Assembly: GCF_044324785.1 (NCBI RefSeq)
Contig: NZ_CP172127.1
DNA from: Escherichia coli
GTDB lineage: Bacteria > Pseudomonadota > Gammaproteobacteria > Enterobacterales > Enterobacteriaceae
DNA: 64,000 nucleotides
Reading direction: 5' to 3' (one strand)
Every line of letters starts with the position of its first letter. Position 1 is the stretch's first letter. The notes below the pieces were generated by a model that worked only from the letters and a program-made list of their open reading frames with translations, was not told the origin of the DNA and did not search any database. The position numbers and the translations under genes were made by a program. This document shows, piece after piece, positions 13,162 to 15,406 of this stretch.

Positions 13162-13377
13162 AAAAACCTCTTTGTTATGACCTATCGTTATTTTATTTGA
13201 TATTCCTTTATCTCATTATGCATAAAGGCGCAATGTTCATGCAAAAGCAATCACAATTGTACCCCCAACCCAATTATTTGCCACAATATACACAAAGCAC
13301 ATTGATACTATCTAAAAACTCTGCTTTATTATTAGTAATACCTACGAAAGTCGGTGTTATTTTTTAACCTACCATTC

Positions 13378-13427
13378 AAAATACGTGACATACACCATTT
13401 TGCTCATAATAATTTGTCACGTATTTT
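13378..13427. repeat. Perfect 13-bp inverted repeat (AAAATACGTGACA / TGTCACGTATTTT) with 24-bp spacer
   Basis: Read directly in the ybcL-ybcK intergenic AT-rich region. Confidence 0.6.
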
Positions 13428-13625
13428 CAGTATTTGAATCTGCGACCAAGAGTTCTCACCTAACAAATGATTAAGATTGTATAGCTCATTTACTACCCCA
13501 ATACAGCCGTACAAAACTCGCTTGTGGGAGCAAACAAAGTAATTACCCATTAAGTTTCGTCAAAGATAATTAATTCTATCTTGCACTTTATCACCATAGC
13601 ATAACTTAAAATCCGAGATCATTAT

Positions 13626-15152
13626 TTAGAAATAAATCTCACCATCAACCATATATTTGAGAGCACTTATCGCCTGCTGGGCGGATATTACTTTCATTAA
13701 AGGATAGTGTTTAAAAACAATGCCATTCATAAAATAGATATCACAGGTTTTATTATCCGTATTAATTATGATTTTTTCGAATGTTTTATAGGCAAGTGTA
13801 CGGCATAACTCTCGTCCATTTTTACTGGTTAAGTCAATAGCATAAAAATCACTGAATGAATTTACACCTTTACTCTTCAAAGTTTTCAATGATACCGAAG
13901 CCCTTCGTAATTCCTTATCTAATAGTCTTATTTTCTCTGCTATAGCGGTAACTTCAGGCGCGACAGACAATGCAACGATTAAATTATTAATTTTCATCTG
14001 AAGCTCAATAATTTTTAACTCTAAAGTTTCATTAGCATCTTTCTTGTTTTCAACTGGTTGAATTTTGCTACAATTAAAAAGCAATTCATTAATGATATTA
14101 TAATCAACCAAATCTCTTTTTATTGATGGCCTGTCACATCGATGTAATCTTCTCATCGGACAAACATAATAGCCATGCAAACTTCCAGATACCGCATGAA
14201 CAATCATGGTATTACCACAAGCCTCACACTTCATAACTGTTCGAAGTAGATTTATTAGCATAGGATTCTTGCTACTATTGCTAATACCAAAAGGTGCCAA
14301 CCGAATTTCCTGTACAGCGTAAAACAAATCATCTGATATGACTCTGGGATAATAGCCAGCGATTTCACTTATCCCTTTCCCTCTTGCACGATATGAAGGT
14401 ACGCATATACCTATCAGAGCTTTATTCGCTAATAATTTTTCAATTACAGAAGGTCCCCATGCACTTTCTTTTCCTGAGAAATTCTTTACAGCATGATCAT
14501 TTAAATACTTGGCTATTGCATTCAATGAGCGCCTTTCCATCCTGAGTTTAAAAATTAGCTCAATAGTTTTCACCCTGTCGGGGTCTGGAACAAAAGCCGT
14601 TCTTTTGTCATCTAAGGAGAGCCATCTCGGACAAGACGCCGTCATAATCGTACCTGATTCCAGTGCATCCTGCCGTTTTTTCTTCCATGATAATTTAACC
14701 CGACTTGACTTTATCTCGCTTTCTTCATTTGCCCTTTGTGCTATAAGTATGGCTTTTATTAATGAATATGGCTCATTCAAAGAGTCAATATTATAGACTG
14801 TATTGTCGCAAAGAGTTATAACATCAATACCGTGATTCAAAATCAATTTCAGACGTTCAATCGCTTCACCGACTTTTTCTCTTGAAAGTCTGTCCAGACT
14901 TTCAACTAACAATGTAGTTCCTGGCAATATATAACCATGCTCTATAGCATCTAAAAATTCCGAAAAAGCTCCTGATTGTGCATGCTTTCCTTTGAATGCA
15001 CTTAATCCTAAATCTTCATATGTTATGGTATCAAGATAATAATCACTATTTACCTTTAACCATTCAGCAATAAGTCTTCTCTGTCGGTTTAATGAGTCAC
15101 CAGACATCTGACCTGGTGATGAAAATCGCATATATGCTATGGCTTTTTTCAT
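13626..15152 (-). CDS. ybcK: Large serine recombinase family protein YbcK
   Basis: 508 aa; N-terminal resolvase-type domain (YMRFSSPGQ catalytic Ser context), Cys-rich recombinase domain. Confidence 0.8.
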   Translation of the reverse strand: MKKAIAYMRFSSPGQMSGDSLNRQRRLIAEWLKVNSDYYLDTITYEDLGLSAFKGKHAQSGAFSEFLDAIEHGYILPGTTLLVESLDRLSREKVGEAIERLKLILNHGIDVITLCDNTVYNIDSLNEPYSLIKAILIAQRANEESEIKSSRVKLSWKKKRQDALESGTIMTASCPRWLSLDDKRTAFVPDPDRVKTIELIFKLRMERRSLNAIAKYLNDHAVKNFSGKESAWGPSVIEKLLANKALIGICVPSYRARGKGISEIAGYYPRVISDDLFYAVQEIRLAPFGISNSSKNPMLINLLRTVMKCEACGNTMIVHAVSGSLHGYYVCPMRRLHRCDRPSIKRDLVDYNIINELLFNCSKIQPVENKKDANETLELKIIELQMKINNLIVALSVAPEVTAIAEKIRLLDKELRRASVSLKTLKSKGVNSFSDFYAIDLTSKNGRELCRTLAYKTFEKIIINTDNKTCDIYFMNGIVFKHYPLMKVISAQQAISALKYMVDGEIYF

Positions 15153-15406
15153 GGTGACACCTGCTAACGTATGCTTTTATAAACCTTAGTGGTGGGATAT
15201 AATTTTTGTTTAATTTTTATTTAAAAAGACAATTAAGGTCACATTATCTTGAATATACAACAATAATCGTATTGCAATTTTCTTACGCCATAATCTTGAA
15301 AGCACAAAAGAATACATAAAAAATAAAGATATTAACAAAAAGCATAAAACGAGGCTCATATAAATATAAGAGCCTCCATATTTTAGTCGTTTAGAAACAA
15401 ATTATT

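What the first reader, a model, noticed from the sequence alone, without database searches (positions are those of the whole stretch)
13162..15406. Serine-recombinase island (ybcK) with a perfect 13-bp inverted repeat in the adjacent AT-rich spacer
ybcK encodes a 508-aa large serine recombinase flanked by very AT-rich intergenic DNA on both sides and by cargo genes (emrE, ybcL, ybcM) unrelated to phage functions. The perfect inverted repeat AAAATACGTGACA-24 bp-TGTCACGTATTTT at 13378-13427 lies upstream of ybcK and could be a recombinase site or an operator. This looks like a secondary element inserted into the nin region.
Basis: seen in the sequence. Interest (0 to 1): 0.45.

Follow-up and report, generated by a model that had tools for sequence, protein, structure and literature searches.

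The report
Hairpin repeat beside prophage recombinase ybcK
The perfect inverted repeat is real and more than chance, but it sits in junction DNA found in only one version of a well-known E. coli prophage cargo island, is tied neither to the ybcK recombinase nor to the mapped ybcLM control site, and has no partner site, so it is probably an ordinary hairpin rather than a recombination site.

Summary
The window holds a DLP12-type lambdoid prophage of E. coli, read in reverse. The repeat AAAATACGTGACA-24 bp-TGTCACGTATTTT at 13378-13427 is exact. About 0.03 such repeats are expected per window and 0.002 in the local spacer. It lies 199 bp downstream of the ybcK stop, not upstream, and at least 94 bp upstream of the ybcLM promoter and the published YbcM binding site (window 13229-13284).

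YbcK is an intact large serine recombinase. It has all three domains, the catalytic Arg/Ser/Asp/Arg residues and four zinc cysteines, and dN/dS is 0.05-0.16.

The low-GC stretch 11772-15843 between ren and ylcH/ybcN is a variable cargo slot, with six different fillings found in related phages. Within it, 13317-15399 (ylcJ, ybcK and the repeat) is a clean insertion or deletion relative to phages with emrE joined directly to ybcL.

The repeat lies in about 230 bp present only in the ybcK+ybcLM version: 674 of 5426 genomes, single copy, invariant. About half of ybcK-carrying prophages lack it. I found no partner site, no symmetry at the junctions, and no inverted or excised forms. The only variants were IS insertions and deletions.

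Best reading, held weakly: a 3' stem-loop of the ybcK unit, or a functionless quasi-palindrome. The genes are already known and interest is low.

The parts
11772..15843 (.). Low-GC cargo island filling the variable slot between ren and ylcH/ybcN of the lambdoid backbone
   Evidence: Homology with phages carrying other cargo ends at 11771/2 and resumes at 15843. GC is 30-43% here against 50-55% in the flanks.
11803..12600 (-). ybcM, AraC-family regulator
   Evidence: Pfam HTH_18/HTH_AraC; annotation.
12610..13161 (-). ybcL, periplasmic PEBP/Raf-kinase-inhibitor-like protein
   Evidence: Pfam PBP and NCBIfam PRK09818.
13229..13284 (-). ybcLM promoter (GTGGCA-17-TACAAT, 13284-13256) overlapping the published YbcM ChIP-exo site (13229-13262)
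   Evidence: PMC3946193. PMC8464067 supplement gives 570015-570048, converted from NC_000913.2 coordinates. The RpoS SELEX peak at 570042 equals window 13235. The coordinate version was checked with the sigma-54 motif in emrE. The promoter scan also lists this site.
13317..15399 (.). ybcK segment: a clean 2083-bp insertion or deletion relative to phages and remnants where emrE abuts ybcL
   Evidence: BLAST against L001 (fliE locus) and L099 (phage backbone) gives the same break points, 13316 and 15400.
13317..13546 (.). Junction DNA specific to the ybcK+ybcLM arrangement; contains the repeat
   Evidence: Present in 674 of 5426 genomes, single copy, at least 97.8% identical. Absent from the B, C, D and F arrangements. 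No homologue in other species. Its 48-aa ORF has no relatives.
13378..13427 (.). Perfect 13-bp inverted repeat with a 24-bp spacer (the finding)
   Evidence: As minus-strand RNA it folds at -18.9 kcal/mol, z = -3.2.
13547..13625 (-). Block of about 80 bp after the ybcK stop, homologous in all ybcK arrangements but only about 70% identical between them. Cargo exchange points lie in or next to it.
   Evidence: Alignment A3. The HS-02 recombinant switches allele at about 13590-13600.
13626..15152 (-). ybcK, large serine recombinase, 508 aa, intact
15153..15406 (-). AT-rich emrE-ybcK spacer with ylcJ (15210-15359) and the published Rho-dependent terminator region tybcK
   Evidence: Annotation. PMC4150792. 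Rho-dependent 3' end 39 nt inside ybcK, PMC7815308.
15340..15378 (-). Terminator-like hairpin GAGGCUC...GAGCCUC followed by GUUUUAUGCUUUUU just after emrE, overlapping the ylcJ start
   Evidence: Fold at -14.6 kcal/mol, z = -2.5.
15407..15739 (-). emrE, SMR multidrug efflux transporter
   Evidence: Pfam Multi_Drug_Res; annotation.

Best explanation
The region is a nested mosaic of accessory genes in the ren-nin slot of a DLP12-type lambdoid prophage. An emrE-ybcL-ybcM unit carries, between emrE and ybcL, a 2.1-kb segment with ylcJ, the intact serine recombinase gene ybcK, and about 230 bp of arrangement-specific trailing DNA.

The inverted repeat belongs to that trailing DNA. I read it as a stem-loop at the 3' end of the ybcK transcription unit. 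In the sense RNA it forms an A4-stem-U4 hairpin about 200-250 nt after the stop codon. It may weakly terminate or stabilise the ybcK transcript and separate it from the self-regulated ybcLM promoter 100-150 bp further on.

It is not needed by YbcK and is not the YbcM operator.

Shown: the anatomy, the distribution, and the absence of a partner site. Inferred: the RNA-level role.
For: - The repeat sits between the ybcK stop and the ybcLM promoter/YbcM site.
- The sense-strand hairpin folds at -18.9 kcal/mol, z = -3.2, with 2 of 200 shuffles as good. A-tract and U-tract flank a 9-bp GC-containing core.
- The neighbouring unit, emrE, also ends in a hairpin plus U-run.
- Two YbcK homologues have canonical hairpin terminators 270-390 bp after their stops.
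- All genes in the island run in one direction under an upstream Rho terminator, so read-through control is a plausible need.
- Evidence against the protein-site rivals.
Against: - The 24-nt loop and four-U tail are atypical. The terminator scan did not call the hairpin.
- Two Term-seq data sets list no 3' end there. ybcK is nearly silent in K-12, so this is weak evidence.
- Arrangements without the repeat manage without it.
- The segment is invariant, so neither selection on the pairing nor compensatory change can be assessed.
- A functionless quasi-palindrome fits the data almost as well.
Confidence: 0.35

Rival explanations
1. Passenger quasi-palindrome. The repeat has no function. It arose in AT-rich junction DNA, for example by template-switch correction of an imperfect palindrome, and spread with one successful haplotype.
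For: - It is confined to one nearly clonal haplotype with no sequence variation.
- It is absent from every other ybcK or ybcLM arrangement and from other species.
- No annotated feature lies under it in any of the records listed for that search, none of the ybcK/ybcL passages checked in the papers consulted refers to it, and there is no Rfam match.
- The ORF overlapping it has no relatives.
Against: A perfect 13-bp repeat is unlikely by chance (P about 0.002 locally). It has stayed perfect in 674 genomes and 37 viral contigs, although these are too similar for that to prove constraint.
Confidence: 0.3
2. YbcK recombination site. The 50-bp unit is an attP-like or inversion-type site bound by YbcK dimers.
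For: - Its total length of 50 bp with outer dyad symmetry matches the size and layout of serine-integrase att sites (from knowledge of A118, Bxb1 and phiC31 sites).
- It lies within 250 bp of an intact, selected recombinase gene.
- Cargo is exchanged repeatedly just 3' of ybcK.
Against: - About half of ybcK prophages, with alleles only 5-8 nt different, lack it.
- No similar repeat lies near five homologues.
- No partner exists in the window, the upstream spacer, or 100,044 species genomes.
- The inner 24 bp has only 3 of 12 symmetric positions and a palindromic GC centre.
- The indel junctions and the reconstructed circular joint show no dyad symmetry above shuffles.
- No inverted or excised forms were seen.
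Confidence: 0.08
3. Operator for another DNA-binding protein: a distal YbcM looping site, or a host or phage regulator acting on ybcLM or on antisense transcription into ybcK.
For: - Perfect symmetry suits a dimeric binder.
- A -35/-10-like pair (GTGACA-17-AATAAT) lies inside the unit on the plus strand.
- AraC-family proteins can use distal sites (general knowledge).
- H-NS is reported in this spacer.
Against: - ChIP-exo places the single, very strong YbcM site at 13229-13262, at least 116 bp away, with no second local site listed.
- The ybcLM unit functions in about 2800 genomes without the repeat.
- A 37-bp centre-to-centre spacing puts the arms on opposite helix faces.
- Promoter-like hits are at chance level.
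Confidence: 0.12

Closest known systems
Phage large serine integrases (A118/LI integrase, SPbeta SprA/YokA, phiC31 Int, TP901-1 Int)
   Same: YbcK has the same three-domain layout and the same catalytic and zinc residues. A family profile matches their solved structures from the recombinase domain through the coiled-coil region. One homologue (59% identity) is the last gene of a prophage next to ssrA, the usual place for an integrase.
   Different: Here the gene sits mid-genome in phages whose relatives carry a tyrosine integrase at the prophage end (intD and 'site-specific integrase' annotated in related prophages). No attL/attR-like sites flank it, and no movement independent of emrE was seen.
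Morons / accessory-gene slots of lambdoid phages (ren-nin interval)
   Same: Low-GC genes unrelated to phage growth, in backbone orientation, with their own promoter or terminator signals, and present or absent among otherwise collinear phages.
   Different: This slot holds a nested arrangement, with a recombinase segment inside an emrE-ybcLM unit. Cargo turns over just 3' of ybcK.
Recombinase target sites with 13-bp perfect arms (loxP, FRT) and 40-50-bp serine-integrase att sites
   Same: 13-bp perfect arms; overall size of 50 bp.
   Different: The spacer is 24 bp rather than 8. The inner half-sites lack symmetry. There is no second copy and no linkage to the recombinase gene across phages.
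Bidirectional intrinsic terminators
   Same: A-tract, stem, U-tract symmetry, so both strands give a hairpin followed by U residues.
   Different: The loop is far larger than the usual 3-8 nt, the U-run is short, and no convergent gene is present.

Membership tests
Large serine recombinase (YbcK) | N-terminal resolvase catalytic domain with Ser nucleophile and conserved Arg/Asp/Arg residues | tested here: met
   PF00239, E = 5.5e-19. R9, S11, D87, R88 and R91 are invariant in 24 homologues and present in YbcK.
Large serine recombinase (YbcK) | Recombinase domain plus zinc ribbon with four Cys, followed by a coiled-coil region | tested here: met
   PF07508 and PF13408. C309, C312, C331 and C339 are invariant. 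The profile aligns to SPbeta and A118 integrases across positions 140-479.
Large serine recombinase (YbcK) | Gene maintained as functional | tested here: met
   Six alleles are all 508 aa; dN/dS is 0.05-0.16.
Large serine recombinase (YbcK) | Catalyses recombination between defined sites | not testable with these tools
None of the ybcK passages read in the 7 papers opened, out of 30 that mention ybcK (25 of them listed), reports activity.
Serine-integrase att site (the repeat) | 40-50 bp with dyad symmetry in both the outer (zinc-domain) and inner (recombinase-domain) parts around a non-palindromic central dinucleotide | tested here: not met
   The outer 13 bp are perfect, but only 3 of 12 inner positions are symmetric, and the centre is GC.
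Serine-integrase att site (the repeat) | Travels with its recombinase gene | tested here: not met
   Absent from the B, C and D arrangements with 96-99.7% identical ybcK, and from five homologue loci.
Serine-integrase att site (the repeat) | A partner site, or hybrid attL/attR at the element ends | tested here: not met
   Arm matches with up to 3 mismatches number 26 against 19 expected. The best match in 15153-15406 is 9 of 13, reached by 73% of shuffles. The junctions show no dyad symmetry. In the one-genome-per-species set the 24-bp-spaced form occurs only in E. coli, apart from a 255-bp low-coverage Alkalicoccobacillus contig 99% identical to it; six Opitutae MAG hits with other spacings belong to an unrelated palindromic repeat.
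Intrinsic terminator (the repeat) | GC-rich stem, loop of 3-8 nt, run of at least 5 U within 8 nt | tested here: not met
   Not called by the scan. The hairpin is stable but has a 24-nt loop and four U residues.
Intrinsic terminator (the repeat) | RNA 3' ends at the hairpin in vivo | tested here: inconclusive
   None listed in two Term-seq supplements, but ybcK is silenced by Rho and H-NS in K-12.
YbcM (AraC-family) operator | Occupied by YbcM in vivo | tested here: not met
   The published ChIP-exo site maps to window 13229-13262, not 13378-13427.
Lambdoid moron / cargo slot | Compositionally foreign DNA at a fixed backbone position, with alternative contents among related phages | tested here: met

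The most novel reading that the evidence does not exclude
YbcK is a cassette-exchange recombinase. The repeat, or the conserved block of about 80 bp just after the ybcK stop, would be its target, and YbcK would swap cargo (ybcLM, hydrolase, antirepressor-like genes) immediately downstream of itself. That would explain why nearly identical ybcK alleles carry different cargo.
Probability: 0.05. Interest if true: 0.6.

Novelty: already known. Interest (0 to 1): 0.2.

Why it matters
If the repeat were a YbcK site, it would give a first substrate for an uncharacterised but clearly maintained serine recombinase found in a quarter of E. coli genomes, and a possible new tool enzyme. The evidence points the other way. 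The useful outcome is therefore a clearer map of a classic K-12 prophage region. It gives the exact borders of the cargo slot and of the ybcK segment. It shows that the ybcLM control elements lie outside the repeat. It also shows that cargo turns over just downstream of ybcK, most simply by ordinary homologous exchange between phages.

Tried and rejected
- **Partner site:** Nothing exceeded chance.
- **The repeat elsewhere:** An exact-core pattern scan of 100,044 species genomes and of IMG/VR found only E. coli copies of the same haplotype, plus an unrelated Opitutae repeat.
- **Structural variants:** A break 36 bp from the repeat in L054 is an IS5 insertion. Loss of ybcK in strain LR-50 is an IS1 deletion. 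Neither is site-specific.
- **Terminal inverted repeats or att-like symmetry at the indel ends:** none. An imperfect 9-bp direct repeat (GTTTCTAAA / GTTTTTAGA) at the two junctions is too weak to interpret.
- **Small gene in the junction DNA:** a 48-aa ORF annotated in one phage record has no relatives.
- **RNA family:** no Rfam match.
- **Anti-phage defence role:** no PADLOC hit for YbcK, YbcL, YbcM or EmrE.
- **MITE or mini-IS:** no target duplication and no other copies.
- **Single-sequence PDB search:** nothing found. A family profile was needed.

Full report
**What is there.** The window is a DLP12-type lambdoid prophage of E. coli, read in reverse. It is 99.9% identical over 5 kb to many E. 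coli chromosomes. On the minus strand the gene order is P, ren (15807-16109), emrE (15407-15739), ylcJ (15210-15359), ybcK (13626-15152), ybcL (12610-13161), ybcM (11803-12600), ylcH, ybcN, ninE, ybcO, rusA and quuD.

The repeat AAAATACGTGACA / TGTCACGTATTTT lies at 13378-13390 and 13415-13427, with 24 bp between the arms. Simulations give about 0.03 such repeats per window and P = 0.0018 for the local 464-bp spacer, so it is not a chance feature. The genes are on the minus strand.

**The recombinase.**
- YbcK has Resolvase, Recombinase and zinc-ribbon domains and matches the PHROG 'integrase' family 95.
- In an alignment with 23 homologues of 27-61% identity, the invariant columns include R9, S11, D87, R88, R91 and four cysteines. 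All are present in YbcK.
- A profile of this family matches solved SPbeta, A118, phiC31 and TP901-1 integrases. The single sequence alone found nothing.
- Six alleles from different prophages and phages are all 508 aa, with dN/dS of 0.05-0.16.

The protein is therefore intact and under selection.

**The island.** GC falls from 50-55% in the backbone to 30-43% across about 11700-15850. Related prophages and free phages share the backbone on both sides but fill the interval differently:

| Arrangement | Content between ren and ylcH/ybcN |
|---|---|
| A | emrE-ylcJ-ybcK-ybcL-ybcM (this window; also phages PhiR34_1, PhiR68_2, PhiR70_1) |
| B | emrE-ylcJ-ybcK plus an antirepressor-like gene (phage Turner) |
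| C | emrE-ylcJ-ybcK plus an alpha/beta hydrolase (phage 4A7) |
| D | emrE-ylcJ-ybcK with no further gene |
| E | a YajG-like lipoprotein and a hypothetical gene, with no emrE or ybcK |
| F | emrE joined directly to ybcL-ybcM |

Arrangement F occurs as a remnant next to fliE, in every sampled row of the ~2800-genome 90-95% identity class (15 rows; one inspected in detail). It also occurs in an intact O-P-ren-emrE phage backbone (L099).

The common borders are 11771/2 and 15843.

**A nested segment.** Relative to F, the window carries a clean 2083-bp extra segment, 13317-15399. The break points are identical in two independent F-type loci. Read in gene direction, it starts with a terminator-like hairpin just after emrE. 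It then contains ylcJ, the published Rho-dependent terminator region upstream of ybcK (PMC4150792; a Rho-dependent 3' end 39 nt into ybcK, PMC7815308), and ybcK itself. It ends with about 310 bp of trailing DNA.

The first 80 bp or so after the stop is homologous in A-D but only about 70% identical between them. The remaining ~230 bp (13317-13546), which holds the repeat, exists only in arrangement A.

**Distribution of the repeat.**
- The 326 bp spanning 13300-13625 occurs in 674 of 5426 complete E. coli genomes. It is always single-copy and always covers at least 80% of the query colinearly, at 97.8% identity or better.
- Three aligned copies, including a recombinant with a different ybcK allele, are identical across the repeat and its surroundings.
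- ybcK itself is in 1426 genomes, and lies next to emrE in every row inspected. About half of ybcK prophages therefore lack the repeat.
- Phage Turner (B) and strain 132 (D) have ybcK alleles only 5 and 8 nucleotides different from the window's, with no repeat.
- A core-pattern scan of one genome from each of 100,044 species found the 24-bp-spaced form only in E. coli. The one exception is a 255-bp low-coverage contig that is 99% identical to E. coli.
- All 37 IMG/VR hits are arrangement A at about 99% identity or better (98.8-99.9%).
- Five YbcK homologue loci (Atlantibacter, Yersinia, Kluyvera, Citrobacter and a metagenomic nin region) have no comparable repeat.

**Tests of the recombinase-site idea.**
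- Arm-like sequences with up to three mismatches number 26 in the window against 19 expected.
- In the emrE-ybcK spacer the best match is 9 of 13, reached by 73% of shuffles.
- The two indel junctions and the reconstructed circular joint show no dyad symmetry above shuffles.
- The inner 24 bp of the unit has 3 of 12 symmetric positions, and its centre is the palindromic GC.
- The only structural variants seen were an IS5 insertion 36 bp from the repeat and an IS1-mediated deletion of ybcK.

None of this supports a YbcK site.

**Tests of the operator idea.** Published data place all known control elements of ybcLM at 13229-13284:
- the sigma-70 promoter GTGGCA-17-TACAAT (PMC3946193; also listed);
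- an RpoS SELEX peak (PMC5493296);
- the single very strong YbcM ChIP-exo site, 570015-570048 (PMC8464067 supplement).

I converted these from NC_000913.2 coordinates. I checked the version against a sigma-54 motif whose sequence I could locate in emrE. These elements lie in DNA shared with arrangement F, at least 94 bp from the repeat. The ybcLM unit works in the ~2800 F-type genomes without the repeat.

**What the repeat most likely is.** In the sense RNA it forms a 13-bp stem with an internally paired loop, at -18.9 kcal/mol and z = -3.2. It has the A-tract/stem/U-tract symmetry of a bidirectional terminator. It sits where a 3' stem-loop of the ybcK unit would be expected, ahead of the next promoter.

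Against this, the loop is 24 nt and the U-run only four, and the terminator scan does not call it. No 3' end is listed there in two Term-seq supplements. That last point is weak evidence, because ybcK is silenced by Rho, H-NS and Hfq/polyphosphate in K-12. Because the segment is invariant, selection on the pairing cannot be judged.

My confidence in each reading:

| Reading | Confidence |
|---|---|
| 3' stem-loop or weak terminator | 0.35 |
| Functionless quasi-palindrome | 0.30 |
| Site for another protein | 0.12 |
| YbcK site | 0.08 |

**Cargo turnover next to ybcK.** Nearly identical ybcK alleles are linked to different cargo. One strain combines the allele typical of B with the A cargo, with the switch at about 13590-13600. 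The simplest cause is homologous exchange, with ybcK and ylcH/ybcN as flanking homology. Site-specific exchange by YbcK is not excluded and is the most novel reading left (about 5%).

**Comparison and verdict.** YbcK is a member of the large serine recombinase family on every sequence criterion tested. Its sites and activity remain unknown. The island is a typical lambdoid accessory-gene slot. The genes, the Rho terminator, the promoter and the YbcM site are all already described. The repeat itself is not mentioned in any of the ybcK/ybcL passages checked in the papers consulted and is unannotated in the records listed. However, it fails the tests for an att site and for the YbcM operator. Interest is low (0.2).

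Noticed in passing
window 4206-4262: A longer perfect inverted repeat, with 16-bp arms (AGAAAGGAAACGACAG...) and a spacer of about 25 bp. It is the strongest short-range inverted repeat in the window.
   Followed up: no
window 60558-60620 and 38826-38867: Further perfect 12-14-bp inverted repeats. The first (CTTATCCGGCCTAC) looks like a REP/BIME-type element.
   Followed up: no
window 14133-14150 (inside ybcK): The sequence TGTCACATCGATGTAATC is the intragenic PhoB ChIP site reported as transcriptionally inert (PMC10294691).
   Followed up: partly
window 15701-15717 (inside emrE): A sigma-54 binding motif, GTGGTGCAATACTTGCA on the minus strand, reported by ChIP-seq (PMC4591121). 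It was used here to fix the coordinate conversion.
   Followed up: partly
window 15340-15378: A terminator-like hairpin after emrE lies inside the ybcK segment and overlaps the ylcJ start codon. In arrangement F, emrE has no such hairpin before ybcL.
   Followed up: partly
L016 4145-7530 (Citrobacter koseri contig): A YbcK homologue (50% identity) is divergently adjacent to a 555-aa gene with a faint Shufflon_N hit, near TraD-like and N_methyl pilin genes. A large serine recombinase might drive a shufflon-like inversion there.
   Followed up: no
L013 5673-9249 (metagenomic lambdoid nin region): A 61%-identical YbcK homologue with KGG and DinI genes lies between an 81-aa DUF1367 fragment and a full-length DUF1367 gene. 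This may be an insertion with partial duplication of the target gene.
   Followed up: no
L009 6001-8432 (Atlantibacter): A 59%-identical YbcK homologue is the last gene of a prophage with Mu-like tail genes, 540 bp from the 3' end of ssrA (tmRNA). That is the position expected of the prophage's own integrase.
   Followed up: partly
L020-L026 (Opitutae MAGs): A recurring palindromic repeat, TGTCACGTAATACGTGACA, occurs in pairs 20-28 bp apart on several contigs. It was picked up only because it shares the core of the search pattern and is unrelated to the E. coli repeat.
   Followed up: no
L001 (E. coli Nissle-type, between fliE and yedK): In every sampled row of the ~2800-genome class (15 rows; one inspected in detail), emrE-ybcL-ybcM plus an nmpC-like porin gene sits as a prophage remnant next to fliE. 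It is about 91% identical to the DLP12 copy and lacks ybcK.
   Followed up: partly
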